Source: a virus. Taken from it: 64,000 bases of DNA. The first letter of the stretch is position 1; the number at the start of each line of letters is the position of its first letter. The DNA is taken from IMG/VR virus record IMGVR_UViG_3300045988_123629; one strand, written 5' to 3'. Shown in pieces: positions 1 to 64,000 of this stretch. The notes under the pieces were generated by a model that was not told the DNA's origin, did no database searches, and was given only the letters and a program-made list of their open reading frames with translations. The position numbers and the translations under genes were made by a program.

Positions 1-342
1 CTGCTCTTCCCTCAAAATCATAATTATAAAATATATTTAACAATAGCATACACTCATATTGTGCGATTGGCCATTTATTCAATTCTTTTTGCTAATTTGC
101 CATTTTTTGGTATAACACCCAAAAAGCTTTTCTATATAACCATAAAAAAAGGAGTGATGCTACTAATGCACAACTCAATAATATAATAAAAATAGTTTCC
201 ATAAATACTCCTTTTCTTTTTTCTTATAATAATAATAAAATAAAAATAAAGAAATGTCAAGTCGTAGAGTGTGATTGGGCAAAAGTTATTTGTTTTGTTA
301 AAAAAATTTTTAAATATAAAAAGAAAAAATTTTAAATGAAAC

Positions 343-377
343 TTGACAAAAAAAATTTTTTCGAGTATAATATAAAT
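343..377 (+). promoter_or_regulatory. sigma70-like promoter (TTGACA, spacer of 17 to 18, TATAAT) upstream of the first late gene
   Basis: ttgaca at 343-348, followed by aaaaaaaattttttcga, then gtataat; a Shine-Dalgarno tggaggtag sits 7 nt before the ATG at 396. Confidence 0.5.
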
Positions 378-395
378 ATAGACTGGAGGTAGAAA

Positions 396-1451
396 ATGAT
401 AAAACTTGATTATTCTTTACAAACTCCAGAAGAAAGAAATCAATTAGTCGAACAAATTTTGGCTGATAATCCAGATCCGCCTGAAAAGTATTTAGAAATT
501 TTAGCAGACTATTTGGTTCTTTGTATGGAGAAACAAGAAAAAAAGGAGAAAAAATTATTAACTGATAATCGTATGGCTACAGTTAATAAGCGTGAGACTT
601 CTTTTGAAGGTCTTGTTTCCCAACTCGAAAATGGCGAAGATGGAATTTATAATTTAATTACAGATAATAGAAATACAATATTTCAACCACATATTACAAT
701 TACAAAAAAAGATTTAGAAGAGATACCAAGTTTAAATTAGTTAAGAGAAGCCATTAATGTTTGGGAGGCTAAATTAAAAGTAACAGAAGGCAAAGATGCT
801 TTTGTTATTAAAAAGGCTCTTATTGAAATGCGTAAAGATTAGTATGTTATGAAAAATGCTTATCGTCGTCCAATAGTGCCTACAAAATTAACCAGATCAA
901 AGTCTTATATTCCATTAGACGATAAAACATTTATTTTTGATGATGATGGTTTTCCCATTCCTGATGGAATTAGTTTATTAAGACCTGAAATATGTTCTGC
1001 GGTTTTATGTAATTATTCCCGATTAAAGCAAGATAGTTGGGGCGAATATGATAAAGACTTATGGTATTTAATGGAGGATTTTGATAAGCTTTGTGATAAA
1101 GCTTTAGCTAATTATCCTCTTTATGATAGAATCGTTGAATATAAAATTGATGGTTTACAAAATATTGACATTCAAGAGAAAATACAAATGGAATTTGGTA
1201 TTAAACATAGTCTTGAATATATTTCAAGTTTATGGCGTAATAAAATTCCAAAATTAATTGCTTCGACTGCGGAAGATGAATATTTAGATAATTATTATTT
1301 AAATGTTGAAAAAGGTAAATATAAAAAATGTAGTCGTTGTGGTAAAATAAAATTAGCTCATAATAAATATTTTAGTAAAAATAAAACAAGTAAAGATGGC
1401 TTTTATAGTATTTGTAAAAGTTGTCGAAATTCTAAGGTCAAAAAATCTTAA
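396..1451 (+). CDS. hypothetical protein with C-terminal C4 zinc ribbon; requires read-through of 2 in-frame TAGs
   Basis: ORFs 396-740 and 849-1451 are in the same frame and separated only by TAGs at 738 and 840; strong RBS; C-terminus has CSRCGK...CKSC; TAA stop. Confidence 0.6.
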
Positions 1452-1500: not shown

Positions 1501-2688
1501 ATGGCTGAAACATATTATTGCGAAAAATGTAATCGCACAATGAATGGCACAGAATTTTATTCATCTAATAATTTAGAAAAATATCCTAATGATGGTAAAT
1601 TTCCTGTGTGCAAAAAATGTATGACAATGCACGTTGATAATTGGAATCCAGATACTTATTTATGGATTTTACAAGAAGCGGATGTTCCTTATGTTCCAGA
1701 TGAATGGAATAAATTAATGGAAAAATATGGACGCGATCCGCAGTCTATGACCGGTATGACAATTCTTGGACGTTATTTGTCAAAAATGAAACTCAAATAG
1801 TTTAAAGATTATCGTTGGAAAGATACAGAATTTTTACAGTAGATGGCAAATAATAAATTAGAGCAAACTATGAAACGTCAAGGGTATGATGCTCAATAGA
1901 TTGCAACCGCTATTGAAAAAAGTTCTATCACTATTCCAGAAGGAGAACTAAAAGAGCCGGTTTACGCTCCACCACCCAATGCCCCTACGGAAGATTATTT
2001 CGCACAATAGAGCGGTGAAGTGGAACAAGAATTAGACTTAACTGATGAAGACCGCACTTATTTAAGACTTAAATGGGGCAAAACTTATAAACCTGAAGAA
2101 TGGGTTAAACTTGAATAGTTATATGAAGAAATGATGGCTTCTTATGATATTCAAGGCGCCGGACATAAAGATACGCTAAAATTAATATGTAAGACATCTT
2201 TAAAGGCAAATCAATTGATCGATATTGGTGATATTGAAGGTTTCCAAAAGATGAGCAAAGTATACGATAGCTTGATGAAGTCTGGTAAATTTACCGCTGC
2301 TCAAAACAAAGCAGAATCAGGTGAATTTGTTGATTCAATTGGCGAATTAATTGAATTATGTGAAAAAGAAGGATATATTGAAAGATATTATGTTGAATAG
2401 CCACATGATAAAGTGGATTTAACTATTCAAGATATGCAACGTTATACTCGCACTCTTATCGAAGATGAAACTAATATTAGCACAATGGTAGAAAAGGCTT
2501 TACGCGAAAATGCTAAAGAAGATGAAGAGAAAGCAAAGAACGCGGAAAGCGATATTGTTGATGATGCTGATTTAAGTATTGAAGAACTTGAAAAAACTAT
2601 TAAAGATAGTGATTACGCGGATTTTGAGGAATTTAAAGAATAGGAGTCCGCGCAAGATAATGAGTTCTTATAGGGTTTAGATAAATAA
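1501..2688 (+). CDS. Zn-ribbon protein immediately upstream of TerL, possible terminase small subunit; 8 in-frame TAGs
   Basis: One frame is continuous from the ATG at 1501 to the TAA at 2686-2688, with TAGs at 1798, 1840, 1897, 2008, 2116, 2398, 2641 and 2671; N-terminus has CEKCNR...CKKC; RBS aaaggag; the stop overlaps the TerL start in a TAATG. Confidence 0.4.
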
Positions 2689-4427
2689 TGGCATTACAAG
2701 ATTTACTGTAGTTAAGTGATAGCCGTAGAAAAATAGGTCTATCACCGGAGCGAGTAGAAGCGGTAATGCCCACTATCCGCAAATACGTTGCCTTTTGGAG
2801 AGAATATCCTGATTTATTTGTAGATTTTATGGTGCGAGGAAGACGCACTGAAATAAAAGATGGAGAATTTAATTTTTATTTTTATTAGAGAGTATTTCTC
2901 CGTTCTGTTATGCGTTATTAGTATGTTTACGCGGTTTTTCCTCGTGCTTATTCTAAATCATTTTTGTCTGTTATGGCATTAATGATTAGATGTATTTTAT
3001 ATCCTGGCGCACATTTGTTTGTTACTTCTGGAGGTAAAGAGCAAGGTGCTAGTATTCTTCATGATAAAGTTCAAGAAATATGTGAACTTATTCCAAGCTT
3101 TAATCGAGAAATTGATTGGAGTCGAGGAAAAACTCTTGAAGGAAAAGATAAAGTTAGATATGTGTTTAAAAATGGTTCAGTTTTGGATAACCTCGCAGCC
3201 CGTGAAAGCACTCGTGGTCAGCGTCGTCATGGTGGACTAATGGAAGAATGTGTCGGTATTGATGATGCTATTCTTCGTGAAGTTATTATTCCTGTTATGG
3301 CAATTTCTCGTAGAGCTAAAGATGGCACTACCAATGAACAAGAGCCATTAAACAAATCACAAATCTATATTACTACTGCTGGTTATAAGGGCACATTCCC
3401 TTATGATAGACTTATTGGTTTCTTAGTTCGTATGGTGACTTAGCCCGATCGTTGTATGGTATTAGGTGGAACATGGCGAACTCCTGTTGCGGTAGGATTA
3501 CAAAGTAAAACATTTATTACTGACCAAAAGAATGAAGGAACTTATAATGAAGCTTCATTCGAACGTGAATATGAATCTAAGTGGTCAGGAACTGTTGAGG
3601 ATGCTTTCTTTAATGGAGAGCATTTTGATAGAAATAGAAAATTATTATAGCCTGAGTATGAAGCTTCTGGACGGGCGGGCGCACAAGCTTATTATGTACT
3701 TTCTGTAGATGTAGGTCGTAAAGGATGCGATTCAGTAGTTTGTGTATTTAAAGTAACACCACAAGCCCAAGGTCCAGCTATTAAGTCTTTAGTAAATATG
3801 TATACTATGTCAGATGATCATTTTGAAGATTAGGCTATTAAATTAAAGAAATTATTTTATAAATATAAAGCTAAAACTTTAGTTATAGATGGTAATGGTT
3901 TAGGTATTGGACTTTTGGATTATATGGTAAAATCTCAAAATGATGAAGATGGTGAATTTTTACCTGATTTTGGTGTTGAGAATGATGATGATGGATATTA
4001 TAAAAAATATCGCACACCAAATACTCAATTTGATGCTATGTATGTTATTAAAGCAAATGCTCCAATAAATACTGAATGTCATGCTAATGCTTAGACTCAG
4101 TTACAAGCGGGTAAGGTAAAATTCTTAATAGATGAGAGAACAGCTAAAGAAAAATTATTAGCTACTCAAAAAGGTTCAAAAATGACTCCTGAACAAAGGG
4201 CAGATTATTTAAAACCATTTACTTTAACCTCCATATTAAAAGAAGAAATGATGAATTTACGCGAAGAAAATGAAGGTATTAATATTATTTTAAAATAGGC
4301 AAATCGCGGAATTCGTAAAGATAAATTTTCGGCTTTTGAATATGGATTATATTATTTAAAACTTGAAGAAGATAAAAAGAAAAAACGTAAAAAGTTTAAT
4401 GCGGCTGATTGGTGCTTTTTAAATTAA
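2688..4427 (+). CDS. terL: terminase large subunit
   Basis: ATG at 2688-2690, which overlaps the upstream TAA; one continuous frame across several TAGs to the TAA at 4425-4427; ORF-track fragments (FYFYQRVF..., ...GGKEQGAS..., ITTAGYKG...) resemble terminase ATPase and nuclease regions. Confidence 0.8.
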
Positions 4428-8063: not shown

Positions 8064-8981
8064 ATGTTTAAAGACTTTTTGAATAAGAATCTTCCTATTA
8101 AGTCTCAGGCAAAGTATGTTGAGTTTGGTTACGGTCAGGTCGAGCCTAATCACCTTTCCGCACAAAGAAATGCTCAAATCTATGCTCAACTTCCCGCCAA
8201 TAAAGACATTGAGATTCTTGAAAATGGTCAGTTTGTAAAGTATGACTATGCTGCTAATAATAACGGTGTCGGCGAAGTCAACTTCACTGGCGAAGGCGAA
8301 TGGATGCTCGTTTATAACGAGATTAAACTTTATCGTGATCATTATGATGGCAGTAAGCAGTGGGATTGCGAATTTGCTATGATTAAAGATGACTATCAGG
8401 CTCGTGTTTATAGCCCTTATGATTGGGAGCATACCGAGGTTGAATATGGTGGTCGTTTCTGGAATGGTGTTGATGAAAAGGGTCAAACCTATAAGTTAAT
8501 CAATCAGACCGTTTCCGCAGATCAAGGTTTAAAGACTGTTACTATTGCTGGTCGTGTTTATGATGTTGATGAAACCGGCAAGTTTACTTATGATGGTAAT
8601 GAATATACTCTTGATAGTAATCATCAGGTTGCTAATGTTCCTGTAAAGTATTACTATGATAAGCTTCTTACTGATGTTCCTGATATGTATGAAATGAATT
8701 GGACCAATGATCCATATCATAAGTTAGGTATTTATCATGAGAAGTTCATGGAATCTGGCACTTCTATGGTTCCTCGTGTATTTAAGACCATGATTGGTGA
8801 TCTTTATACTACTAATATGATTAATGAAGAGACTCTTGCTGTTGGAGATAAGCTTTCTCCTTCTGCTGCTACAAAGGGTATTCTTAGCAAAACTGGCGAC
8901 GATTCAATGACCTGGCAGGTTGTTAAGGTTTATACTATGCCTGATGGTCAAAAGGGTGTCAAGGTAATGCGTATTAAGTAA
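8064..8981 (+). CDS. head or virion structural protein (decoration or second head protein); TAG-free
   Basis: RBS aaggaggacatactaaATG; no in-frame TAG; higher GC and codon usage typical of highly expressed genes; lies between scaffold and capsid candidate. Confidence 0.4.
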   Translation: MFKDFLNKNLPIKSQAKYVEFGYGQVEPNHLSAQRNAQIYAQLPANKDIEILENGQFVKYDYAANNNGVGEVNFTGEGEWMLVYNEIKLYRDHYDGSKQWDCEFAMIKDDYQARVYSPYDWEHTEVEYGGRFWNGVDEKGQTYKLINQTVSADQGLKTVTIAGRVYDVDETGKFTYDGNEYTLDSNHQVANVPVKYYYDKLLTDVPDMYEMNWTNDPYHKLGIYHEKFMESGTSMVPRVFKTMIGDLYTTNMINEETLAVGDKLSPSAATKGILSKTGDDSMTWQVVKVYTMPDGQKGVKVMRIK

Positions 8982-8998
8982 GAAAGGAGAAAAGGATA

Positions 8999-10105
8999 AT
9001 GTTAGATAAAAATAATTTAATTGCTCTTATGAAGCAAGTTGCTAAGGCTGATCCTTCTGCTCCTGTTGCTTATAGTTATGAGGGAAAAAATCTTAGTTAT
9101 GAAGCCTTAAATGAAACTCTTCGTAATGAAATGAATGAGTTGGCTGGTACTTACGCTCTTTATCGTGAAAATAAGAATCTTATTTTCTCTATGATTGAGC
9201 AGACTCTTGATGAGGTTCTTCCTAAGAAAGTTATTCAGCAATATGATCAGTTTGCTGAGGTTAAGACTTTCGCTCAGGGTGATAAGCCTATTTTCCGCCG
9301 TCCTCTTAATAATCGTGCTCGTGCTAAGCAGTTTGTAACTCGCGTTGGTCTTGCTGGTATTTATGAAGTCTTCAAGCTCGGACCTAAAGAGAATGAAGCC
9401 TTCGAGGTACGCACTAGCGCTATCGGCGGAGCTGCTCAGATTGGCTTCGAAGAATTCCTTGATGGTCGTGTTGATTTTGGTGAAGTAACCAAGATCATCA
9501 TGGATGGTATGGATGAACTTATTTATAAAGAAGTCGCTGCTGCTCTTAGATCTTCTATCAATCAGCTTCCTCCTGCTAACCGCGTTGCGGCTGCCGGATT
9601 TGATGAAGCTGCTATGGATCGTTTGATCACTATTGCTTCTGCTTATGGTACTCCTACTATTTATTGTACTTATGAGTTTGCTGTTAAGATGATTCCTCAT
9701 GAGGCTTGGAGATATACTGAAGCTATGAAGAACGAGCTTTGGAATAATGGTCGTCTTGCCACTTACAAGGGTACTAAGGTTATTATTCTTGAGCAGGGCT
9801 TTGAAGATGAAACCAATACTCGTAAGGTTATTGATCCTGGTTATGCTTGGGTTATTCCTACGGGCGCTGATGGTAAGCCTGTAAAGATTGCTTTCGAAGG
9901 TGGCACTATTGTTGATGAATTCAACAATTATGATCGTTCTCGTGAGATTCAGGTTTACAAGAAGGTTGGCGTAGTTTGTATGCTTGCCAATAACATCTGT
10001 GCTTATGTTGATACTTCACTTCTCGGTCAGATGTATACTTGGAATTATGATGGAGTTACTGGTAAGGTTATCACTTATGATGGTCGCCTTGACGGTACTG
10101 TCTAA
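8999..10105 (+). CDS. major capsid protein candidate, 368 aa, TAG-free
   Basis: RBS aaaggagaaaaggataATG; no TAG; expression-optimised codons; followed by a strong rho-independent terminator; size and position consistent with an HK97-fold capsid protein. Confidence 0.5.
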   Translation: MLDKNNLIALMKQVAKADPSAPVAYSYEGKNLSYEALNETLRNEMNELAGTYALYRENKNLIFSMIEQTLDEVLPKKVIQQYDQFAEVKTFAQGDKPIFRRPLNNRARAKQFVTRVGLAGIYEVFKLGPKENEAFEVRTSAIGGAAQIGFEEFLDGRVDFGEVTKIIMDGMDELIYKEVAAALRSSINQLPPANRVAAAGFDEAAMDRLITIASAYGTPTIYCTYEFAVKMIPHEAWRYTEAMKNELWNNGRLATYKGTKVIILEQGFEDETNTRKVIDPGYAWVIPTGADGKPVKIAFEGGTIVDEFNNYDRSREIQVYKKVGVVCMLANNICAYVDTSLLGQMYTWNYDGVTGKVITYDGRLDGTV

Positions 10106-10121
10106 TTTAATATAAATTATT

Positions 10122-10168
10122 CCATGGGGAGAAGGGATTAAACTCCCTCTCCCCATATTTTTGTTTTA
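10122..10168 (+). terminator. rho-independent terminator after the capsid gene
   Basis: ggggagaaggga, loop ttaaac, tccctctcccc, then atatttttgtttt. Confidence 0.7.
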
Positions 10169-10191
10169 TGAGTAAAAGGAGAAATTGAATA

Positions 10192-10785
10192 ATGATTAAT
10201 AATGAAGATATTTATAATGTAAAAAATAGAAGCACTAGTGTAGTTGTTTATACTATTCCTGATACTAATTTGCGTCGTGAATTTGCGCCCGGTGAAACTA
10301 AGCGCATTCCATTTGGTGAGCTAGAGAAGTTAACTTATCAGGCGGGCGGCCGCGAATTAATTGCTAATTTTTTACAAATTTTAGAGCCAGAAGTAACTCA
10401 TACTCTTAATGTTCATACTGAACCTGAATATAATATGTCAGAGCAACAAGTTGCTGATTTAATTCTTAATGGCTCATTAGATGCTTTTTTAGATGCTCTT
10501 GATTTTGCTCCTATTGGAATTATTGACTTAATCAAGAATTTATCTGTTAGCCTTCCTATTACTGATATTAATAAGCGTAGAGCTTTGAAGGAAAAAACTG
10601 GGTTTGATGTTGATAAAGCTATTGCTAATGATATCGCTAGTAAAGAAGAAGATACTATTGTAGAGAAAGAACCCGCTGCTAAGCGTCGTGTAGTAAGAGA
10701 AGAACCTGTTACTCAAGGTCGTCGCACAAGCGGTTCTGGATATAAAGTAATTAATAAAACCGAGGAAACTTCCTCCAAGAAATAA
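10192..10785 (+). CDS. hypothetical head-tail connector or head completion protein with basic C-terminus
   Basis: RBS aaaaggag; 197 aa with no TAG; C-terminus is K/R-rich (AKRRVVREEPVTQGRRTSGSGYK). Confidence 0.4.
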   Translation: MINNEDIYNVKNRSTSVVVYTIPDTNLRREFAPGETKRIPFGELEKLTYQAGGRELIANFLQILEPEVTHTLNVHTEPEYNMSEQQVADLILNGSLDAFLDALDFAPIGIIDLIKNLSVSLPITDINKRRALKEKTGFDVDKAIANDIASKEEDTIVEKEPAAKRRVVREEPVTQGRRTSGSGYKVINKTEETSSKK

Positions 10786-28500: not shown

Positions 28501-28827
28501 TAGGCAGCAGATGCAGCCGCGGATGTAGCGGAAACAGCTGCTTCAATTTCTATAGTAGCTAGCAATGCTGCGTCTAATGCATAGAGTGCGGTAGATGATT
28601 TAAGTTATTTATCAAAAATTTTGAATTATAAAAATAGTAGTAATATTTATTTAGGTCCTTCTGTTGAATATTCTTCTACTCCCAATTTAACTATTTTTAA
28701 TGGCACAATTGGCTTAATGGGAGGAACTGGTAATTATCTTAATGTGACTGATAGGTCTATCTATTTACAAGGTCCCGTTGTAATAAATGGTTCATTGACT
28801 CTCAATGGAAAAGAAATAACAGGTTAA
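25510..28827 (+). CDS. large distal tail protein (Dit-like or fibre-like), 1105 aa
   Basis: TTG start after aaaaggaggg; ORFs 25510, 25984, 27037 and 28621 are in one frame across TAGs; Ala-rich collar segment AAAEAKSAASAAGAAATKAQ near the C-terminus. Confidence 0.5.
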
Positions 28828-28849
28828 ATTAAAAAGGAGAAAAAGGAAA

Positions 28850-29026: not shown

Positions 29027-29027
29027 A

Positions 29028-52169: not shown

Positions 52170-52616
52170 ATGAATACTTATGGTTATCCATAGCAGTAGT
52201 ATCCAATAGGTAATAATAGACCTATTTATGGAACAACTGCTACCCCTGTGATTCAAAACAATACTGCATAGCGAATTAGACCTGTTGCTTCTTTAGAAGA
52301 GGTTCGAGCTATGAATATAGATTTTGATGGTTCAGTTTTTTATTTTCCTGACTATGCTAATCGTAGAATTTATACAAAACAAATAAATATGGATGGAACA
52401 GCTTCTATTAATATGTATGAATTAAAGGAAATCCCGAATTCTTCTTAGCCTAATAATGATTATATAACACGAGAGGAATTTAATACTACCTTAACTTCTA
52501 TTAAAGAAGTTTTTGCATAGATCATGGGATCCAATAACGCGGTTGCGCCGTCCCAAGGGATGGATTAGCCAGCTCAATAGCAACCAGCAGAGAGCAAACC
52601 GCAGTTTAATTTTTAA
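52170..52616 (+). CDS. Gln/Asn-rich hypothetical protein, 148 aa, island gene 1
   Basis: RBS ggaggtaataacATG; 8 in-frame TAGs; product YGYPQQQYPIGNN...PAQQQPAESKPQFNF if TAG is Gln. Confidence 0.45.
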
Positions 52617-55101: not shown

Positions 55102-55137
55102 AACTATTTTTGTTTCATTCCCTTATTTTTTTTTATT
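55084..55137. terminator. bidirectional rho-independent terminator
   Basis: aaaaaaaataagggaatgaaac, loop tattttt, gtttcattccctt, then attttttttt. Confidence 0.7.
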
Positions 55138-55564
55138 AGTCTTTAAGCGGTAATTTTAAAGTCCTTTCATAGTACTCTTTAGCCTATCCATTTCCACCTA
55201 AACCTGCATATACTTTAAAGAATTCGACTAACTATTCATACTGCCCTGAAGTCATATATCCTTGTTTTAAGAAACTTTGACATAACTGAATTAATCTAAA
55301 TCTATAAGAAGCAAGAATTATTTCAATATATCTCTCACTAATTTTCTTTTCTTCCAATACGAAAGATCTTAAATTATTTAGATCTTCTTTGATTGGAGCT
55401 ATATGCTCTTCAATTAATTCTTCTAATTGTTCATCTTTCTTTTCTTCTGCCAATTTTTGATACATTTTCATTTGAGTATAAATATATCTACAAAAGGCTA
55501 AGAGGCCAGCAGAAATAAGACCAAAAAATATTTCTATAAAATGCTAGGCAATAAAAGTAGACAT
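55136..55564 (-). CDS. small membrane protein, 142 aa, last gene of the minus-strand module
   Basis: Minus-strand ATG at 55564 after a perfect aaggagg; N-terminal transmembrane helix FIEIFFGLISAGLLAF; ORF 55232-55471 extends through 2 TAGs to the TAA at 55136-55138. Confidence 0.45.
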
Positions 55565-55641
55565 AAAAAATACCTCCTTCCATTAACTTCTAATATATTT
55601 TAAAAAAAAGGAAGGAGGATTATTTATTTAAGGCCTATCTA

Positions 55642-56154
55642 TTATTCCCAATTAAAATTATTATTGGAACTTTCTTTCGTGAAATATGCAGTATATAAAC
55701 ATATAGCATCACATATATCATCATTGGCTTTTATATTATATTTTTGCTATACAAAATCAATATCGGCTTGTTTAAGAGTTTCACGTTTAATACTGCGACC
55801 GGTTTTAATTCCGAGTTTTTTACGCCATTCGCTGGCCTACATCAGCTCTAATGTTTTGGAAGTAAATGAAGAATTAACTTCATGTGCGCCTAACATTACT
55901 GCACCTTGAAGCCACATTAATAAACGTGAAGTGTCAGAATATCCATAAGTTTCAGGATGAACATCTTCCGCTACTATTTTCTCTATATTATATTTTTTTA
56001 CTAATTCAATAATCTAATCTTGTATTTTTTGTATTCTATCTAAATTATTAGAGGAAACTGCGGTTAGCAGTCCATAATTTAACATTTCTCCCTCGTTATT
56101 AGATACACAATAACCAGTAGATTTAGTAGATAAATCTAAAAAGAGGATATTCAA
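55642..56154 (-). CDS. RuvC-like Holliday junction resolvase
   Basis: Minus-strand TTG after aaggaggtaattac; LNILFLDLSTKSTGYCV (N-terminal catalytic Asp block) and ANDDICDAICLY (C-terminal Asp block); 3 in-frame TAGs; TAA stop. Confidence 0.6.
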
Positions 56155-56187
56155 GTAATTACCTCCTTTCTTTAAGGTTTGAGGTAA

Positions 56188-56706
56188 TTACTTTGAAGTT
56201 GAGCCAAATCCTCCAAGGCGGTCACCAGAAGCATTATCGTCTTCGGTGATTAAATAAGGTTTAATAATACCTTGACCAATAACATCACCTTTATGAAGTT
56301 GAATATCAAAAGGAGATAAATTAATCATTTGAAAATAAATATGTCCTTCATTATCAGGATTATTATAATAATCTGCATCAATAATCCCAACGCCATTAGC
56401 AAGAATAAGCCAATATTTTAAAGGGCAAGAACTGCGAACTGACAATTCAAGATATGTATTATCATTTAATTCACATTTAATTCCAGTAGGCACAAGAGTT
56501 GGTTTTGCTTTAAGATTTTTTGTCATATTACCCATATCTTCAAGAGAAATTGAATCAAAATAACGTGTTGGAAATCTATTTAACAAATTCTTGTATGCTG
56601 GAATTACAATATCTTCCGCTACTGTAAAATCGTAGCCTGCGGATTTTGCTGTTTTTCTTACAGGCAAAACCGCATCAGGATATTTGCTTACTCGTTCAAA
56701 CTTCAT
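56188..56706 (-). CDS. dut: dUTP diphosphatase
   Basis: 172 aa; GVGIIDADYYNN and C-terminal GDRLGGFGSTSK motifs of trimeric dUTPases; TAG-free. Confidence 0.8.
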   Translation of the reverse strand: MKFERVSKYPDAVLPVRKTAKSAGYDFTVAEDIVIPAYKNLLNRFPTRYFDSISLEDMGNMTKNLKAKPTLVPTGIKCELNDNTYLELSVRSSCPLKYWLILANGVGIIDADYYNNPDNEGHIYFQMINLSPFDIQLHKGDVIGQGIIKPYLITEDDNASGDRLGGFGSTSK

Positions 56707-56954
56707 TAAAAGCTTACCTCATAATTTACATCAATATTACTAATAGGATCTTTTTCATCATTGAATTTCTTAACAAGAGTGACTTGATACCATTCATCGA
56801 CAATTTCACCCTTAGCCTTTTTTTCTTTCTTTACTGAACTATACTTAGCTAAAATATATTTAGTTTCAGCCTTAGCCTCATCAATAAGCGCGGCCGCACT
56901 CTCTTCATTATCTACACGATAAACTTCTGTAGCACTTACAAGATACTTATTCAT
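56706..56954 (-). CDS. hypothetical protein, 82 aa
   Basis: Start and stop overlap neighbouring genes; TAG-free. Confidence 0.4.
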   Translation of the reverse strand: MNKYLVSATEVYRVDNEESAAALIDEAKAETKYILAKYSSVKKEKKAKGEIVDEWYQVTLVKKFNDEKDPISNIDVNYEVSF

Positions 56955-57214
56955 TAACCTACCTCAACTTTAATTTCTTTTCTATTGGAATAATTTAAAT
57001 TATTACTTTCATAAATTTTTGGAATTAATTCATTAATAAAATCTTCAATACCATATAAACGTATAGTATCAGTATCGTTTTTATAACAAGATGCTACTAA
57101 AACATTTGGAAGATCAGAAATACTACAAGTTCCAATAGTTACTGCCATTCCGTCATCATAAGTTTTAAAAATATTTTGTTCCATTGAAAATAAATTAATA
57201 TTACAAACAATCAT
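56954..57214 (-). CDS. hypothetical protein, 86 aa
   Basis: Tightly packed in the operon; TAG-free. Confidence 0.4.
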   Translation of the reverse strand: MIVCNINLFSMEQNIFKTYDDGMAVTIGTCSISDLPNVLVASCYKNDTDTIRLYGIEDFINELIPKIYESNNLNYSNRKEIKVEVG

Positions 57215-57748
57215 TTAATTACACTCCACAATACCAGCATCATATTGGAATAAATAAAAACAATAAGATTCATTATCAATATTTATCCAAATTTCAATAG
57301 CGCCATTATTATTTTTTTCCCAACCAACAATACTTCCTAATTCTTGACAAAGTATAATTACCATACTCGCTAAAGAACCAGTTGAAATAATTGGAGGAAT
57401 ATTTTTGTGAAAAATGGTATAATAATTATAATCTTTACATAATAACATATAATACATTCCATATTCACTCATTTCATTAATACTACTCATTAATTTATTT
57501 AATTCTTCTTTATTAATCGGATCCATTTGTATCATAATATTTTTATTAAAATCATATAAATTCATTCCAGTTTGAAATGTAGTAGAATTATCTGACAAAT
57601 TATTAGTAGTAGTTCCTATCATTACCCATTCATTTCCAGTGTAACAATATTGTTTCTGATCTTCACCAGAAATGGCAATAGTTCCTTCTTCGAATTTACG
57701 AGGAGAATTATATAATTCTCCCATCGTATTAGTATAAAAAACATTCAT
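57215..57748 (-). CDS. hypothetical protein, 177 aa
   Basis: RBS ataggagattatataacaATG on the minus strand; TAG-free. Confidence 0.45.
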   Translation of the reverse strand: MNVFYTNTMGELYNSPRKFEEGTIAISGEDQKQYCYTGNEWVMIGTTTNNLSDNSTTFQTGMNLYDFNKNIMIQMDPINKEELNKLMSSINEMSEYGMYYMLLCKDYNYYTIFHKNIPPIISTGSLASMVIILCQELGSIVGWEKNNNGAIEIWINIDNESYCFYLFQYDAGIVECN

Positions 57749-57781
57749 TGTTATATAATCTCCTATCTATTTCATAGAAAA

Positions 57782-57810
57782 ATTATATCACAAATTTTCT
57801 TTTTTGTCAA
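57782..57810 (-). promoter_or_regulatory. consensus sigma70 promoter (TTGACA, 17-nt spacer, TATAAT) on the minus strand
   Basis: Reverse complement reads ttgaca aaaaagaaaatttgtga tataat; about 25 nt upstream of the RBS of 57748. Confidence 0.55.
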
Positions 57811-57829
57811 GTTTTAAATTAATAATGTT

Positions 57830-58282
57830 CTAATTGCGAGAACCGCGCAAAGGTAAAGTAATATCTCTTTCCTTTTGGATATATGGTCCATCAATTAGAT
57901 AATCAGCAGTTTTTAGTATATTCTTAATTCTAATATTATTACTATTCTTTAAATCATCATAAACATATCCAGTCCATATATATATTTTAATGTTTGGATA
58001 TATTTTTTTAATTTCAGTAATAACTAAATTAGTTAAAAATTCGTTTTCAGGGCAGAGAGGTTCTCCACCCATAATACAAAGATTACGCGCAACATTATTC
58101 GCATTAATAGCAGTAATTAATTCATCTAATACTTTATTAGTAAATTCTTTGCCACCATTAAAATCCCACGTTTCAGGATTCTGACATCCTTCACAATGGT
58201 GCGGGCACCCTTGTGTAAAAAATGATACACATACTCCGGGTGCCGCCGCCAAATCATTCTTTATAATTCCTGCATATTTCAT
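57830..58282 (-). CDS. nrdG: anaerobic ribonucleotide reductase activating protein (radical SAM)
   Basis: CVSFFTQGCPHHCEGCQN Cx3Cx2C cluster near the N-terminus; start overlaps the nrdD stop (ATGA); TAG-free. Confidence 0.8.
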   Translation of the reverse strand: MKYAGIIKNDLAAAPGVCVSFFTQGCPHHCEGCQNPETWDFNGGKEFTNKVLDELITAINANNVARNLCIMGGEPLCPENEFLTNLVITEIKKIYPNIKIYIWTGYVYDDLKNSNNIRIKNILKTADYLIDGPYIQKERDITLPLRGSRN

Positions 58283-60600
58283 TCTAATGCTCCTGTATGT
58301 TTTACTCTTGCTTCAACTTCTTTTTGTTTACCCCAGTTAAAAGCAGTTTTATAATTGCCTGTAAGATAGCCAGTTACACGACGTAATTGCTGAATATTAT
58401 GGCTTCCACACACTGGGCAAGAATCATTAAATTCATCACAATAACCGCATTCAAGGCAAGTGTCATTAGGAACATTTACTGCGAAATAAGGAATATCATG
58501 ATCCATAGCATAATTAACAATAGTTTCAAGAGCATCAATATTATGTTTTACAGTAGAATCAAGTTCAACATAAGTGATACATCCTGCGGATGAATAACCA
58601 GTCAGCTCAGATTCAATATCAATTTTTTCAAATGGACTCATTTCTTTCCACACCGGAACATGAATACTGTTAGTGAAAAATTCTCTATCACTAACATTAG
58701 GGATAATTCCATACCTTTCTTTAAATTTCGTCATAGCTGTATAACAAAGATTTTCTGCTGGAGTATAGTATACACCAAAATTTAATTTATATTTTTCTTT
58801 GTATTCAGCGCATCTTTCTTTAAATAATTGTTCAATTTGTTTAGCTAATTCCATTCCTTCTGAAGTGGTGTGGTCTTTACCAATAAGAATTTGAAGAGTT
58901 TCTGCCAAACCTAACTGACCAATAGCAAGAGTTCCATGCTTAAGAGCAGAACGAATTCCCTCTTCTGGGATATAGCCTGCCATAACGTTATTTTCATACA
59001 TAAATTTCGCGGAACCTGGATCTTGAGAACAAATCCACTCAAAACGCTCCATTAATTGAATACGCGCTTCATTGATTTTTCTATCGAGTAAAGACATAAA
59101 TCGTTCTACGCCAATTTTAGTCCGTTCTTCTTGAGACAATGATTTATAGTCATCCCAATTATCATTTTCATTTAGAGTAACGGCCATCATCGCTAGAGTA
59201 GGAAGAATAATAGTAACTGGACAAATATTTCCACGTCCATCTTTAAGCTGGCCGAATCCATTAATATCCCATCCATTCGCGGTTCTGCATCCCATCGTAG
59301 AAAAATAAGTGCGAGGATCATTAATATCATATCCAGCATTACCGGACCAATCAACATTTGCATAATTAGGATAAAGGCGTCTTGCGGTGCTTTCTAATGC
59401 TAATCTATATAAATCATAGTTAGGATCACCAGGTTTGCGGTTAACACCTTTCATACATTGGAAAATTCCACAAGGGAAAATCGAAGTTTTATGAAGTTTA
59501 CCAAGACCTTCAATAGAAACATCTAATAACGCCTTAGTCACCATTCTGCCTTCTGGTAAGGTGCAAGTGCCATAATTAATACTCGTAAATGGTAATTGGT
59601 TACCGCTACGAGACTGTAAAGTATTAAGATTATGGTAAAGACCTTCTGCAGCTTGATGAGTCTCACGGACAGTCATATCATAGGCATAATCATAAGCCTT
59701 TTTATAAGTTTCAGAAGCTAATAAATAACTAACTGCATTTTCTTCTTCAGTTTTTGTTGTGGCATTTCGGTATGATTGAATAGGCATTTTTGATGTGTCT
59801 AAATCTCCTAATACATTATTAACAATATAGTTATAATCATTAGGACTATATAAGTATTTAACTCCATCTTTAAAATGCTTCCAAAAAGATTTTCTTACAT
59901 AAGGAACCATAGTCCAATCTAAGTGAGTGGCACTAACTCCGCCAAACTAACAAAGACTTTGGATTTGAAAAATAACAGCAATTAATTGAAATGCTGTATT
60001 AATTGAACCCGCAGGACGAACATCTGCTTGACGAGTATTAAATCCATTAGCAAGCAAATTATCAAAAGGAATACTTAAACAGTTATGAGAACCAACATAA
60101 TAAGAATCAAGATCGTGAGTATATATCATATTATCAATATGATTCTTACGAGCCATAGGGGAAAGTAAGTAATCAAGTGCAAGTTGTTTGGTGACAACAC
60201 CACTTGCTTCACCTATACGACCACCGAATGAATGTTCATCAACATTAGCATTTTGATTTTTTACGTTATTACCATCGAGCTTTTCACGAATTGCTTTAAT
60301 AAAATCATCTTTTTTATTACGAGCAACTTCTTTTTTATATCTATATCTGATATAAGCACGAGCAACATCGCGTCGCTCAGAACGCATTAAATAATCTTCA
60401 ATCCAATCTTGAAGATCTTCTACTCCAACACTTCCATCGGGGAAATGATTTATTTGTCTTTCAATGTCTTCCGCGATATCTTTTGCGGTATCATCTTCAT
60501 ATAGTTTACCATCAACTTCAATAAATGCTTTATTTATTGCGTTAATAATTTTCTTTTTATTAAATTGAGTTATACTTCCATCACGTTTAATAATATACAA
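58279..60600 (-). CDS. nrdD: anaerobic ribonucleoside-triphosphate reductase
   Basis: ORFs 59947-60600 (ATP-cone-like MYIIKRDGSITQFNKKKIINAI) and 58279-59910 are in the same frame, joined across in-frame TAGs; C-terminal CGYCDEFNDSCPVCG Zn ribbon and RVTGYL glycyl-radical motif; TTG start 9 nt after ggagg. Confidence 0.85.
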
Positions 60601-60618
60601 TTTTTTTTGCCTCCAAAC

Positions 60619-60659
60619 TAAATATAGTAGTTCTTTTAGAATATTCTACTATATTTAGG
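60619..60659. repeat. perfect 13-bp inverted repeat with 15-nt spacer, directly upstream of the nrdD RBS
   Basis: ctaaatatagtag, spacer of 15 nt, then ctactatatttag. Confidence 0.6.
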
Positions 60660-60795
60660 TTTTGTTAGTAAATAATTATTTATCTTGGTCCATTTCCGCC
60701 CATTGCTTAACTTTTTGAGTTAAAAGATTAACAATATTATTATAATCTTCTAATGTTTCATTTGTCACAACATTGCACTTAATATCATTCATTAG

Positions 60796-61251
60796 CTAAA
60801 ATTGAATTTCATCAGTAGTATATCTTCTAATGATTTCATTTACATCAGGATTTTTTTCTCTATTTAATTGCCTAATTAAGCGTGTCTTTCCTTTAGCGGT
60901 AATATAATATATCTCCAATTCAATTCTATCATCTTTAAGAAGACTTATAATTCCTTCAGGATTAAAAACACCAATATTAACTTTACTATCAGACAAACTA
61001 TCAATACTTGTGCCATAATACCAATTATTAAAAGAAGTGGTTTCTAACATTTTATTTTCATCAATTAAAGTTAAAAACTGGTCATCTGAAACAAAATGAT
61101 AATTTTTGTCTGCTATTTCTTTTTCACGCTTCGGGCGCGTAGTGTGGCTTATAATAGGATTTAAATATTCCTCTAAGTGGGAAAAGGTAGCCATCATTAG
61201 GCTATCTTTTCCCGCACCAGATTTTCCACATAATGCAATAATTTTATACAT
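60796..61251 (-). CDS. guanylate-kinase-like nucleoside monophosphate kinase
   Basis: P-loop ALCGKSGAGKDS and SHTTRPKREKE...YHFV, as in guanylate kinases; the ATG at 61251 (aggagg 11 nt upstream) overlaps the DnaE stop as ATGTATAA; an alternative in-frame ATG at 61281 has no RBS. Confidence 0.6.
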   Translation of the reverse strand: MYKIIALCGKSGAGKDSLMMATFSHLEEYLNPIISHTTRPKREKEIADKNYHFVSDDQFLTLIDENKMLETTSFNNWYYGTSIDSLSDSKVNIGVFNPEGIISLLKDDRIELEIYYITAKGKTRLIRQLNREKNPDVNEIIRRYTTDEIQF

Positions 61252-64000
61252 CTTCTTCAATTCCTCCTTGATAACGAGCATCTTTTAAAACTAAATCGCC
61301 ATTAGATAAAATTTCATCAATTTTATATAATTGATGCCCTCCAGAAGAAGCATATTTTTTTGACATGAAATTATCTCCATTGCGGATTCCAGAGACTACA
61401 ATCATATTTCCGCGATTAAACCAAGATTTTTCAACAATATGTTTGGTTCCATCTGCACCGCGCTCTGAAATTTGTTTATCAAACAAACTAAAATATTCTT
61501 TTCTAAATTTTACTTCTACAGGACCAGTAGTAGTAAGGATAGTTACGGTACTTTTAGTTTTATTTTTGGCAATACAAGTTCCGCAAATTTTAAATAACTT
61601 ATAAATATGAATAGTATGATTTCCTTTAGTAAAACTTCTATCAATTATTGGGTCTTCTGGAAGTTTAAAGAAATCTACAAATCCATATTTATCATTGTTA
61701 ATATTGTTTAATTCATGAGTATGATAATAATAACAAAGAACTTCCATTTCCCAAGCGGATAGATTATTTTTATTAGCGTATTTATCCCAATCATCTTTAA
61801 ATATTTTTATATTCAGATTATTCAAAATTTCATCTTTATTATTAGCAATCCAAGTGCGAAATATATCCATCCACTTTTGGTATATACCATTCCAAATATT
61901 TTCACTTAAAGAATAATTAGTTCCATCAAATTGAATATTATTATCTTCTCCAATTTCTACTAAGAAATTAATAGCTCGTTCATCAAGTTGATATAAACCA
62001 TTATTTTTTGTAGTTTTACAAATTGCTTTTAAATATCTATTAAATTCATAAATACGGCGAGCCATAATTTGATTTTCATTTTCTTCTGGAAGAAGATCAT
62101 ACTTCATAAGTCCGCCCATATTTTGAAGAGTAATTCTTTTCTTTTTGTCGCAAGTTTCCCAAATATACCAAATCATTAATTCTTTTCTATCCATCATATT
62201 ATCAAAAGCTCCGCCTTTAATAAGAGAAATCATAGCTTGTTTACCTGGCTTAATACGATATAAAAATTCTTTAGGATTTGAATAAGGGCGATTGGCAATG
62301 ATTGTATTAACTAATTCATCACCAACATTTAGCATACCTTTTAGTCCAAAAAGGATTTTATTATTTTCAATATCAGGGGCAAATCCAAATTTAGATTTGT
62401 TAATATCAGGAAGACCTACTTCAATTCCTGCTTTTTGAATGTCACTAATAGCCTTGGCAATTTTTCCATAATCAGTAGCCGCGGTTTTGCGGATTTTGCC
62501 ACTTTTGTCAGGAAGATCTTCAAATGTTACTCCATTAGCTAAATCATCGCCTTCAGGAGCATAAATATCGACAATCTCTTCTTCGCTATTATCTTCAAGG
62601 GAACCACTATTAACAATTAAACAAGCGGTATCCCAATAGATAGGATTAAAATGAATTACTAAGTAAATCATTTGAATTGCTACAAATGAATAAGGAAGGG
62701 AATGGTTAAGGCTAAATGCATATCCTAATTGAGGAGCAACTGCAATTTCCCAAAAGTATTCAGCAGATTTTTCATTATCAAATTTACTAAATACTTGTTC
62801 TCTCAGTTGTGGAATTTTAGCCATTTGCTTTTTAGCAACAATCTTACGCGCAGTATTAGCTTCACCAAGAGTAAAATGAGCTACATCCATAAGGATTTCC
62901 ATCATTTGCTCTTGAATAGGACAACATCCATAATATTTATCACAATGCTTATGCATCTTATCAATTAATTCTTGTGGAAGATGCTGAGCCTTCATTTCAT
63001 CATCAAATACTTTAATACCCGAATGTTGAATGCGATAATATCTATCTTGCTGTGATTCCTTGCCTTTTTCAGACATAAGACGCATCATAGCATTTGCCGC
63101 CGTCATTTCCATAGGGTCTTGGGGTTTAAGACGTTTCGCAATTGCTAAACCAACTCCCGTAGAAAATTGGAATACATCTAATACATCACCCGCGGCAAGG
63201 TGGTCCCAAATTGCTTGGTCAGTTGTATCTATTACTTCTGGATGAATATATTTATTATAGAATTCTCGTAAAGATAATTCTGGAATTTGTTTATCTTTTA
63301 GAAGTAATTGATAACAAGTAATAATTTTGTCAGAAGCTTCAGTTACAAGGAAGTCATATTTTGTATCTCCCGCGGCTTCCGCTTTATGAAGATCCCAACA
63401 AGTAATCATATCTCCACTAGGAGTTCTCATAAATGATGCTGTATCAAATGGATCGTCACCATACAAAATAACGCCAGAAGCATGAGAAGAACGTTTATTA
63501 ACCATTCCTTCAATATATACAATAATATTCAAAAGACCAGGATATTGGTTTACTTCTCGAATAAATGCTTGAACGGGTTTACGGTCTTTTTCTTCATTAC
63601 CATAAATAACATCATGGATAGGCCATAAAAATCCACGCTCTTGGGGAATTAATGAAGACATATATTGAGCATTATCAACATCAATTCCTTCTGGAAATTC
63701 TTCACTTCTATATCCACGACAAGCAGTTAAAATACTTTGTTTAGTGCCTTCAGTTCCAAATGTAGCAACTTGAACCAATCCCAATTCTCCGCGTTCTTTT
63801 CTAATTGCTTTAAAAATTGCGGGACGCTTACTTGGGGCAAGGTCAATATCAATATCGGGCAATTCCGCGCGCTCCTTATTTAAAAATCTCCAATAAGGAA
63901 GTCCCCAACGAATTGGGTCTAATTGAGTAATACCTAAAAGATAATTAGATAAAAAGCCAGTCGCAGAACCACGTCCAGGACCTACAATACTTCCACATTC
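61244..64000 (-). CDS. dnaE: DnaE-type DNA polymerase III alpha subunit, C-terminal two thirds; the 5' end lies beyond the window
   Basis: Frame is open to the window edge; ...VGPGRGSA... and LPDIDIDL palm-domain motifs; VATFGTEGTK, HASGVILYGD and KYDFLV blocks colinear with E. coli DnaE; TAG-free over more than 900 codons. Confidence 0.8.
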   Translation of the reverse strand, partial: ECGSIVGPGRGSATGFLSNYLLGITQLDPIRWGLPYWRFLNKERAELPDIDIDLAPSKRPAIFKAIRKERGELGLVQVATFGTEGTKQSILTACRGYRSEEFPEGIDVDNAQYMSSLIPQERGFLWPIHDVIYGNEEKDRKPVQAFIREVNQYPGLLNIIVYIEGMVNKRSSHASGVILYGDDPFDTASFMRTPSGDMITCWDLHKAEAAGDTKYDFLVTEASDKIITCYQLLLKDKQIPELSLREFYNKYIHPEVIDTTDQAIWDHLAAGDVLDVFQFSTGVGLAIAKRLKPQDPMEMTAANAMMRLMSEKGKESQQDRYYRIQHSGIKVFDDEMKAQHLPQELIDKMHKHCDKYYGCCPIQEQMMEILMDVAHFTLGEANTARKIVAKKQMAKIPQLREQVFSKFDNEKSAEYFWEIAVAPQLGYAFSLNHSLPYSFVAIQMIYLVIHFNPIYWDTACLIVNSGSLEDNSEEEIVDIYAPEGDDLANGVTFEDLPDKSGKIRKTAATDYGKIAKAISDIQKAGIEVGLPDINKSKFGFAPDIENNKILFGLKGMLNVGDELVNTIIANRPYSNPKEFLYRIKPGKQAMISLIKGGAFDNMMDRKELMIWYIWETCDKKKRITLQNMGGLMKYDLLPEENENQIMARRIYEFNRYLKAICKTTKNNGLYQLDERAINFLVEIGEDNNIQFDGTNYSLSENIWNGIYQKWMDIFRTWIANNKDEILNNLNIKIFKDDWDKYANKNNLSAWEMEVLCYYYHTHELNNINNDKYGFVDFFKLPEDPIIDRSFTKGNHTIHIYKLFKICGTCIAKNKTKSTVTILTTTGPVEVKFRKEYFSLFDKQISERGADGTKHIVEKSWFNRGNMIVVSGIRNGDNFMSKKYASSGGHQLYKIDEILSNGDLVLKDARYQGGIEEDV

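What the first reader, a model, noticed from the sequence alone, without database searches (positions are those of the whole stretch)
1..64000. TAG stop codon is reassigned to a sense codon, probably Gln (table 15 style)
Seen directly: nearly every late gene is a single reading frame that the ORF track splits only at TAG. For example 1501-2688 is one frame with 8 TAGs, and TerL 2688-4427 keeps colinear terminase sequence across TAGs. The tape measure gene 17082-25394 and the giant gene 39298-47001 are each assembled from 7 to 12 same-frame fragments. None of the roughly 60 delimited genes ends in TAG; all use TAA or TGA. TAGs sit inside CAA/CAG runs (cca TAG cag TAG tat cca; caa TAG caa cca) and the resulting Q-runs (YGYPQQQYP, PAQQQPAES, NPQQLV) look natural, which supports Gln.
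Basis: partly seen in the sequence, partly recalled or inferred. Interest (0 to 1): 0.8.

Follow-up and report, generated by a model that had tools for sequence, protein, structure and literature searches.

The report
Gut phage reads TAG as glutamine
This 64-kb piece of a roughly 196-kb human-gut phage really does use the stop codon TAG as a glutamine codon. This kind of recoding is already well documented in gut phages, including this phage's own wider clade.

Summary

- **Gene structure.** With TAG read as sense, the window resolves into 51 genes. They hold 276 in-frame TAGs in 39 genes, and all end in TAA (42) or TGA (9).
- **Amino acid.** In a standard-code relative (MT836163), 21 of 46 aligned TAG positions are Gln (background 3.6%, p=1e-18). 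Among about 75 related genomes TAG exchanges mainly with CAA (30 sites) and CAG (12 sites), and never with TAA or TGA.
- **Distribution.** TAG makes up 36% of Gln codons in late + strand genes and 9% in the - strand replication genes. It is absent from five CAG-rich late genes, which are probably the most abundant virion proteins.
- **Decoder.** The window has no tRNA. Conspecific genomes (95-98% nt identity) carry a tRNA(CUA) gene in a tRNA array about 60 kb past the window's right end. No release-factor gene was found in the roughly 150 kb examined.
- **Relatives.** The phage is a distant, syntenic relative of phAss-1 (NCBI "Caudoviricetes code 15 clade") and of Enterococcus phage EF1-like siphoviruses.

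The finding is real, but it is a new member of a known kind (code 15 phages; Ivanova 2014, Borges 2021/22, Peters 2022, Babkin 2023). Interest is modest.

The parts
396..1451 (+). Sigma-factor-like gene with 2 in-frame TAGs. The third TAG, at 390-392, lies upstream of the likely start and is TAA in most relatives.
   Evidence: phrog_5767 match; gene table; relatives' codons
1501..2688 (+). Conserved packaging-module gene (phrog_3314) with 8 in-frame TAGs
2688..4427 (+). Large terminase with 8 in-frame TAGs. Five of them align to Gln in MT836163.
   Evidence: 61% aa identity over 573 aa to L001
4810..6459 (+). Portal protein with 11 in-frame TAGs
   Evidence: phrog_2739, profile 61-494 of 501; tblastn to portals of Firmicutes siphoviruses
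8064..10785 (+). Three consecutive late genes with no TAG, rich in CAG. The function of 8999-10105 as major capsid protein is inferred from its position only.
   Evidence: CAG/CAA 24/23 against 32/374 in TAG-containing late genes, p=2.5e-12; phrog_4088 and phrog_35301
14070..15053 (+). TAG-free virion structural protein. It is probably the major tail protein, inferred from position.
   Evidence: phrog_2729
17082..25394 (+). Tape measure protein, 2,770 aa, with 79 in-frame TAGs
   Evidence: synteny with the tape measure genes of VRE9_4 and phAss-1
25510..36834 (+). Tail/baseplate module of five large genes carrying 24, 14, 9, 1 and 10 in-frame TAGs
   Evidence: phrog_1887 tail protein for 31897-34203
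39298..47001 (+). Giant late gene, 2,567 aa, with 35 in-frame TAGs and no CAG at all. No family match was found.
52170..52616 (+). Small Gln-rich gene with 7 TAGs.
55136..64000 (-). Replication and nucleotide-metabolism block with a low TAG load (9 TAGs in 2,832 aa). The DNA polymerase III alpha gene runs off the window.
- RuvC-like gene 55642-56154: 3 TAGs.
- dUTPase-like gene 56188-56706: 0 TAGs.
- NrdG 57788-58282: 1 TAG, at 57830-57832.
- NrdD 58279-60600: 1 TAG, at 59947-59949.
- Guanylate-kinase-like gene 60676-61260: 1 TAG, at 60796-60798.
- DNA polymerase III alpha 61244-64000: 0 TAGs.
   Evidence: Among relatives, the NrdD TAG alternates with CAA (11 TAG, 10 CAA) and the guanylate-kinase TAG site reads CAG (9) or CAA (8).

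Best explanation
The window is about one third of a roughly 196-kb tailed phage from the human gut. The phage is a distant relative of phAss-1 and of the large Enterococcus, Bacillus and Clostridioides siphoviruses, and it is translated with genetic code 15. TAG encodes glutamine, and TAA and TGA remain the only terminators.

**Shown**
- TAG is in-frame in most genes.
- It behaves in evolution as a third Gln codon.
- It is concentrated in late structural genes. It is rare in replication genes and absent from a few CAG-rich late genes that are probably highly expressed.
- Conspecific genomes encode a tRNA with anticodon CUA in a tRNA array about 60 kb beyond the window.

**Inferred**
- That tRNA is expressed during infection. 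It is charged with Gln by host enzymes, either GlnRS or GluRS plus the GatCAB amidotransferase, and it outcompetes host RF1 at UAG.
- Before the suppressor accumulates, TAG-rich late genes would be truncated. Recoding could therefore delay structural and lysis functions, as in the model of Borges et al.
- The near-complete replacement of CAG by TAG outside the TAG-free genes suggests that C-to-T mutation pressure drives the spread of TAG in a 30% GC genome. Selection would keep TAG out of genes that need early or very high expression.
For: **ORF statistics and gene table.**

**Homology across TAGs.**

**Gln at TAG columns.**
- 21 of 46 in MT836163, p=1e-18, with the Gln substitution profile best by 38 log-likelihood units.
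- 15 of 104 in VRE9_4, p=7e-4.
- The NrdD TAG aligns to the Q of 'SSQYGG' in PDB 9d3x.

**Codon exchange among relatives**.
- At TAG sites the alternates are CAA at 30 sites and CAG at 12.
- At the window's CAA sites the second commonest alternate is TAG (45 sites).
- There is no exchange with TAA or TGA.

**Terminators.** 0 of 51 genes end in TAG, against about 15-20% of long ORFs in standard-code relatives.

**Late versus early.** The odds ratio for TAG use is 5.5, p=1e-8.

**Suppressor tRNA.**
- A tRNA(CUA) lies at L493:8360-8432, in a contig 94.8-97.8% identical to the species proxy L332.
- It scores 51.8 bits on the Rfam tRNA model and folds as a cloverleaf.
- Its anticodon arm GGTCTCTAAAACC is shared with phAss-1 suppressors and with at least 120 IMG/VR contigs.

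**Literature.**
- bioRxiv 10.1101/2021.08.26.457843 (Borges et al.).
- PMC10607447 (Babkin et al.).
- PMC9523058, seen only as an abstract: proteomic proof of code 15 in crAss-like phages.
Against: - The suppressor tRNA was found in conspecific genomes, not in the window or in its exact source contig. About 50 kb of the genome remained unexamined.
- The ancestry of the commonest 73-nt suppressor is unresolved. Crude isotype profiles score Thr 19.1 and Gln 17.5, and by pairwise identity the nearest non-suppressor tRNA is Trp. Its T loop (AUCGACA) and its U1-C72 mismatch are unusual.
- Replication genes are not TAG-free. A RecJ-like gene just outside the window has 7 TAGs, so a strict early/late code switch is not supported.
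- There is no protein-level evidence.
- The host is unknown. Placement in MAGs suggests Bacillota. From general knowledge, many Bacillota lack GlnRS, which complicates the charging step.
Confidence: 0.93

Rival explanations
1. TAG is a sense codon but encodes another amino acid, such as Glu, Trp, Lys, Ser, Tyr or pyrrolysine. One route to Glu would be a suppressor charged by a non-discriminating GluRS and not amidated. A Trp-derived suppressor could keep its Trp identity.
For: - Glu is the second commonest residue at TAG columns: 6 of 46, with GAA or GAG as alternates at 10 sites.
- The 73-nt suppressor's anticodon arm differs from that of a related phage's tRNA-Trp by one base.
- ARAGORN labels CUA tRNAs 'Pyl'.
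Against: - Gln dominates at TAG columns, at a rate equal to or above that of true Gln codons.
- The Glu share at TAG sites is about the same as at ordinary CAA sites.
- Trp is aligned at 0 of 46 TAG columns and 1 of 104.
- The 'Pyl' label comes from the anticodon only. No Pyl machinery was seen, and the tRNA lacks Pyl-type architecture.
Confidence: 0.03
2. Recoding is real, but this genome does not decode TAG with its own tRNA. It would instead rely on a host suppressor, or on near-cognate reading of UAG by tRNA-Gln(CUG) after RF1 is inhibited or depleted.
For: - No tRNA is present in the window, nor in 10 kb to its left or about 50 kb to its right in conspecifics.
- Borges et al. detected TAG suppressor tRNAs in only 40% of TAG-recoded genomes.
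Against: Conspecific contigs (L493, L494, L495, L498, L491, L492) all carry a tRNA(CUA) in the same Val-Tyr slot. This slot starts right at the edge of the IMG/VR proxy locus.
Confidence: 0.06
3. The recoding has no timing or regulatory role. It is neutral codon capture: once a suppressor is present, AT-biased mutation converts CAG to TAG wherever selection on translation efficiency is weak.
For: - CAG is almost gone from TAG-containing late genes (32 CAG against 374 CAA) but retained in TAG-free genes (24 against 23).
- TAG also occurs in replication genes.
- TAG load varies from 2 to 31 per 1,500 aa across related lineages.
Against: - TAG use is about fivefold higher (odds ratio 5.5) in late than in replication genes.
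- The same late-gene and lysis-gene bias has been reported in unrelated recoded phages.
- The two views are not mutually exclusive.
Confidence: 0.35
4. The genome uses the standard code, and the in-frame TAGs are pseudogenes, sequencing errors or assembly artefacts.
For: None beyond the fragmented standard-code ORF map.
Against: - Only TAG interrupts frames, never TAA or TGA.
- The same pattern appears in many independent assemblies.
- TAG positions are conserved or swap with Gln codons.
Confidence: 0.005

Closest known systems
Code 15 (TAG to Gln) recoded gut phages: crAss-like phages, Lak phages and the Firmicutes-infecting clades of Borges et al. (bioRxiv 10.1101/2021.08.26.457843). Proteomic validation is reported in PMC9523058. 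Ivanova et al. 2014 is cited from my own knowledge.
   Same: - In-frame TAG decoded as Gln.
- A phage-encoded tRNA(CUA).
- A low-GC genome.
- Recoded codons enriched in late structural genes.
- No dedicated aminoacyl-tRNA synthetase.
- A host presumed to use the standard code.
   Different: - A different phage lineage: a large siphovirus-like genome related to Enterococcus, Bacillus and Clostridioides phages, not Crassvirales or Lak.
- No RF2 gene found.
- Replication genes are only partly TAG-free.
phAss-1 / proposed genus Phassvirus and its wider monophyletic group (Babkin et al. 2023, PMC10607447; GenBank OQ749652; NCBI 'Caudoviricetes code 15 clade')
   Same: - Syntenic head and tail module, with 30-50% aa identity (TerL 44%, portal 40%, the 8999-10105 protein 50%).
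- A very long tape measure gene.
- NrdD/NrdG and DNA polymerase III alpha genes.
- TAG-to-Gln recoding.
- tRNA(CUA) genes with the same GGTCTCTAAAACC anticodon arm.
- Enterococcus phage EF1 is a standard-code relative.
   Different: - Genome about 196 kb at 30% GC, against 136 kb at 44.5% GC.
- In phAss-1 two suppressor genes sit next to nrdD. Here that position has no tRNA and the suppressor lies in a distant array.
- The divergence is far beyond genus level.
Classical E. coli amber suppressors supE (tRNA-Gln CUA) and su7 (tRNA-Trp with a CUA anticodon, charged mostly with Gln). This comparison is from my own knowledge.
   Same: A tRNA whose CUA anticodon keeps U35, with a weak 1-72 pair and G73, is expected to be accepted by the Gln charging system.
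   Different: - The gene is phage-encoded.
- The T loop is aberrant.
- Charging is untested.
- The host may lack GlnRS.

Membership tests
Genetic code 15 phage (TAG reassigned to Gln) | In-frame TAGs whose read-through restores full-length, colinear homologues of conserved phage proteins | tested here: met
   TerL, portal, NrdD, NrdG and other genes
Genetic code 15 phage (TAG reassigned to Gln) | TAG is not used as a terminator | tested here: met
   0 of 51 genes end in TAG. There is no TAG-to-TAA or TAG-to-TGA exchange at 18 stop sites or 47 TAG sites. Standard-code relatives use TAG stops.
Genetic code 15 phage (TAG reassigned to Gln) | TAG positions correspond to Gln in standard-code homologues | tested here: met
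   21 of 46, p=1e-18. Alternates among relatives are mainly CAA and CAG. 15 of 104 in VRE9_4.
Genetic code 15 phage (TAG reassigned to Gln) | A phage-encoded suppressor tRNA with anticodon CUA. This is common but not universal in the family. | tested here: met
   The gene is not in the window. It is present in conspecific contigs that are 95-98% identical to the species proxy. The window's own genome could not be read that far.
Genetic code 15 phage (TAG reassigned to Gln) | Recoded codons enriched in late (structural and lysis) genes | tested here: met
   TAG/(TAG+CAA+CAG) is 0.36 in late genes and 0.09 in replication genes, p=1e-8. Replication genes are not strictly TAG-free.
Genetic code 15 phage (TAG reassigned to Gln) | Accessory release factor (RF2) or aminoacyl-tRNA synthetase gene. 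Only a minority of members have one. | tested here: not met
   No GGQ release-factor motif appears in any six-frame translation of the window or of any fetched locus. About 50 kb of the genome was not examined.
Genetic code 15 phage (TAG reassigned to Gln) | Peptides with Gln at TAG positions | not testable with these tools
   This needs proteomics.
Proposed genus Phassvirus (phAss-1) | High nucleotide identity (80-86% among members) and shared genome synteny, including the unusual multi-domain capsid protein | tested here: not met
   Only 30-50% aa identity, with a different GC content and genome size. No blastn match to OQ749652 was seen in the TerL search. The phage belongs at most to the wider group.
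Pyrrolysine decoding of TAG | A Pyl-type tRNA with PylRS and pylBCD, and TAG at Pyl positions | tested here: not met
   The tRNA(CUA) has an ordinary cloverleaf, and TAG columns are Gln. No dedicated search for pyl genes was run. The family scans of selected ORFs returned none.

The most novel reading that the evidence does not exclude
Two things may be going on in this species beyond ordinary code 15 use.

- **Active codon capture.** TAG has almost entirely displaced CAG as the G-ending Gln codon, except in a handful of very highly expressed genes.
- **A fast-swapping suppressor cassette.** Three unrelated tRNA(CUA) genes occupy the same Val-Tyr slot in genomes more than 90-95% identical. The commonest one has an aberrant T loop and a 1-72 mismatch. 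This could reflect an arms race with host tRNA-targeting defences, or adaptation to hosts that make Gln-tRNA by the transamidation route.
Probability: 0.25. Interest if true: 0.5.

Novelty: new member of a known kind. Interest (0 to 1): 0.28.

Why it matters
**Practical.** Any annotation of this phage with the standard code shatters most of its late genes. For example, the tape measure gene breaks into 78 pieces. The genome must be called with translation table 15.

**Biological.** The window adds one more well-supported case, in a lineage of large phages probably infecting Bacillota, to the known pattern that gut phages reassign TAG to Gln and load it into late genes. It does not open a new question.

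**Side observations.** Three details could interest people working on how codon reassignment spreads:
- the replacement of CAG by TAG;
- the TAG-free genes that are probably the most abundant virion proteins;
- the interchangeable suppressor tRNA genes within one species.

Tried and rejected
- **Pfam on ten late proteins.** This gave nothing useful. PHROGs was needed.
- **PDB sequence alignments for NrdG and the guanylate-kinase-like protein.** These did not reach the TAG column.
- **tRNA searches.** ARAGORN and Rfam on the window found no tRNA. Six successive 10-kb hops through IMG/VR relatives reached only a first tRNA array without a CUA tRNA. The suppressor turned up on the metagenome scan.
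- **Collection-wide pattern search.** It also used a D-arm anchor (TAG) that this species' tRNA lacks, so it said nothing about this species.
- **Isotype assignment of the suppressor.** Home-made sequence profiles were inconclusive for the 73-nt type: Thr 19.1, Gln 17.5. They were clearly Gln for other types.
- **Release-factor motif search.** Negative.
- **Crude ORF-coverage classifier of relatives' codes.** It was confounded by a GC-rich flank. It was replaced by counting in-frame stops in three orthologous genes.
- **A frame error.** An error for the polymerase gene was corrected.
- **Host inference.** Placement in MAGs is weak: one conspecific contig is binned as 'Mollicutes', others as Clostridia.
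- **No family match.** The giant gene and several tail genes matched no family.

Full report

The window is 30.3% GC and has no tRNA gene.
- Under the standard code, ORFs of at least 100 aa hold 13,184 aa and the longest is 918 aa. With TAG read as sense these figures become 23,870 aa and 2,778 aa. Treating TGA as sense gives little gain.
- A simple code 15 gene model gives 51 genes. Of these, 39 contain in-frame TAG (276 TAGs in 20,408 codons). All end in TAA (42) or TGA (9).
1501-2688 has 8 TAGs, TerL 2688-4427 has 8, the tape measure gene 17082-25394 has 79, and the giant gene 39298-47001 has 35.
- The last two genes are cut into 78 and 36 pieces under the standard code, not 7-12.
- The quoted nucleotide contexts are at 52188, 52575 and 52683.
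- Standard-code relatives end roughly 15-20% of long ORFs in TAG, so 0 of 51 is not a chance result.

**2. Are these real genes read through TAG?**

- PHROG profiles cover the proteins across TAG positions. The portal matches profile positions 61-494 of 501. TerL, a sigma-factor-like protein and several conserved virion proteins also match.
- Pfam domains of NrdG and a guanylate-kinase-like protein span their single TAGs. NrdD aligns end to end with solved anaerobic ribonucleotide reductases.
- The portal finds portals of large siphoviruses of Bacillus, Lactococcus, Enterococcus, Clostridioides and Staphylococcus.
- Gene order matches the cultured, standard-code Enterococcus phage VRE9_4.

**3. 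Which amino acid?**

*Closest public record.* MT836163 (12.3 kb, human faeces) shares 50-60% aa identity with the window. Its few in-frame TAGs all fall outside the aligned gene bodies, so it uses the standard code.
- Of 46 window TAG codons that align to it, 21 face Gln (14 CAA, 7 CAG), 6 face Glu, and the rest are scattered.
- That is 45.7%, against a Gln background of 3.6% (binomial p=1e-18). It is at least as high as the conservation of ordinary CAA/CAG positions (38%).
- The Gln substitution profile fits the TAG columns better than any other amino acid, by 38 log-likelihood units.

*Codon exchange among relatives.* About 75 related genomes with at least 75% nt identity were fetched around both ends of the window.
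- 38 of 47 TAG sites vary. The alternates are CAA at 30 sites, CAG at 12, GAA at 6, GAG at 4 and AAG at 3.
- CAA is two substitutions from TAG, so this is synonymy, not mutational proximity.
- Conversely, TAG is the second commonest alternate at the window's CAA sites (45 sites, after CAG with 61).
- TAG never exchanges with TAA or TGA.

*Other checks.*
- The more distant VRE9_4 gives a weaker signal in the same direction: Q at 15 of 104 columns against a 5.6% background, p=7e-4.
- The single TAG in NrdD faces the Q of 'SSQYGG' in PDB 9d3x.

*Verdict.* TAG is a Gln codon here.

**4. Distribution within the genome**

- In the + strand late module (up to 51.2 kb), TAG makes up 36% of all Gln codons (253 TAG against 456 CAA+CAG). 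In the - strand replication and nucleotide-metabolism block it is 9% (9 against 90). The odds ratio is 5.5, p=1e-8.
- The DNA polymerase III alpha and dUTPase-like genes have no TAG. NrdD, NrdG and the kinase-like gene have one each.
- The separation is not strict. A RecJ-like gene just right of the window has 7 TAGs, and an amidase has 8.
- Five late genes of more than 150 aa are TAG-free: 8064-8981, 8999-10105, 10192-10785, 12739-13320 and 14070-15053. They are also the only CAG-rich late genes (CAG 24, CAA 23). TAG-containing late genes have almost no CAG (32 against 374; p=2.5e-12).
- I infer from their position that these are the most abundant virion proteins. That function was not tested.
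- The pattern fits CAG-to-TAG drift under AT pressure wherever selection on translation is weak.

**5. How is TAG decoded?**

*Finding the rest of the genome.*
- The window is not identical to any public contig I could reach. It is 96-97% identical to a set of IMG/VR contigs of 110-200 kb.
- One of these, 196,076 bp long, wraps around on itself, so the genome is about 196 kb.

*Walking outward from the window*.
- Walking in 10-kb steps through these conspecifics showed no tRNA in 10 kb to the left or about 50 kb to the right.
- Next came a first tRNA array: Cys, Met, Lys, Gly, Leu, Ser, Ser, Thr. It has no CUA anticodon.
- Beyond a block of fibre-like genes, human-gut metagenome contigs carry a second array. 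These contigs are 94.8-97.8% identical to the proxy over the shared 10 kb.

*The suppressor.*
- The second array contains a 73-nt tRNA(CUA) between tRNA-Val(UAC) and tRNA-Tyr(GUA), at L493:8360-8432.
- It scores 51.8 bits on the Rfam tRNA model and folds as a cloverleaf.
- The gene lies about 60 kb beyond the window's right end.
- Its anticodon arm GGTCTCTAAAACC is shared with the phAss-1 suppressors and with at least 120 IMG/VR contigs.
- It has a U1-C72 mismatch and G73, and it keeps U35. From textbook knowledge of supE and su7 suppressors, these features are compatible with Gln charging.
- Its ancestry is unresolved and its T loop (AUCGACA) is odd.

*Not found.* No release-factor-like gene appeared in any fetched sequence. 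About 50 kb of the genome remains unread.

*Still inferred.* Charging of the tRNA by host enzymes, its competition with RF1, and any timing role.

**6. What is known**

- Stop-codon recoding of TAG to Gln in gut phages, with suppressor tRNAs and enrichment in late and lysis genes, is described by Borges et al. [quoted passage not shown]
- Proteomic confirmation exists for crAss-like phages (PMC9523058, abstract).
- Babkin et al. described phAss-1, a 136-kb siphovirus-like gut phage with 41 TAG-interrupted ORFs and three tRNA(CUA) genes. They also described a wider group that includes Enterococcus phage EF1 and other partly recoded genomes.
- The window's proteins are 30-50% identical to and syntenic with those of phAss-1. 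EF1-type phages were among the TerL hits.
- Across relatives, the number of in-frame TAGs in three packaging genes ranges from 0 to 31. Recoding is therefore patchy in this clade, as the literature already says.

**7. Verdict**

- This is a new member of a known kind, not a new phenomenon.
- Its practical value is for annotation: the genome must be called with table 15.
- The side observations are the CAG/TAG trade-off, the swappable suppressor genes, and a tRNA-Lys gene split by a tRNA-like insert in some strains. They are mildly interesting and are listed separately.

Noticed in passing
L332:12780-12919 (also L260, L333, L338, L340, L268, L269); conspecific genomes, outside the window: A tRNA-Lys(UUU) gene carries a 68-nt insert exactly between U34 and U35 of the anticodon.
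- The insert looks like a small tRNA: it has a 7-bp acceptor stem, a T arm and an encoded CCA.
- Other strains (L334, L337, L339) have the uninterrupted gene.
- The insert has no other copy in any fetched sequence.
- RNA-ligase-like and polynucleotide-kinase-like genes lie about 10 kb away (L233:3153-4535 and 9360-9941).
   Followed up: partly
L493:8360-8432, L492:1597-1686, L490:3199-3271: Three unrelated tRNA(CUA) genes occupy the same slot between tRNA-Val and tRNA-Tyr in genomes 90-95% identical to the species proxy.
- One is a 73-nt type.
- One is a 90-nt type with a long variable arm.
- One is a Gln-like type.
   Followed up: partly
window 8064-10785, 12739-13320, 14070-15053: Late genes without TAG are the only CAG-rich late genes. 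Elsewhere CAG has almost vanished; the giant gene, for example, has CAA 47, CAG 0 and TAG 35. This suggests that TAG has replaced CAG.
   Followed up: yes
L332:11575-11703 and L339:10839-10967: A RAGATH-33 RNA scores above Rfam's gathering threshold (126.8 against 120.4 bits) inside the first tRNA array. A sub-threshold twister-P1-like match lies at L493:2881-2931.
   Followed up: no
L027-L029, L343:1021-1094, L516:5217-5296, L517:7660-7739: More distant relatives carry tRNA genes with anticodon UCA (opal-suppressor-like), some alongside a tRNA(CUA). No in-frame TGA was seen in the three packaging genes of the relatives examined.
   Followed up: no
L140:1-9000 (just left of the window in conspecifics): A block of small - strand genes has about 42% GC, against 30% in the window. 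It has no in-frame TAG and includes an AbrB/SpoVT-like protein.
   Followed up: no
L519 (CAMELE010000001.1) and L520-L531: A conspecific 164-kb contig is binned as an 'uncultured Mollicutes' MAG. Relatives sit in MAGs labelled Clostridium, Lachnospiraceae, Erysipelotrichaceae and Bacilli. These are probably binning artefacts, but they hint at Bacillota hosts.
   Followed up: partly
window 390-392: The TAG just upstream of the sigma-factor-like gene's likely start is TAA in 23 of 25 relatives. That gene therefore probably starts at 396, not at 336.
   Followed up: yes
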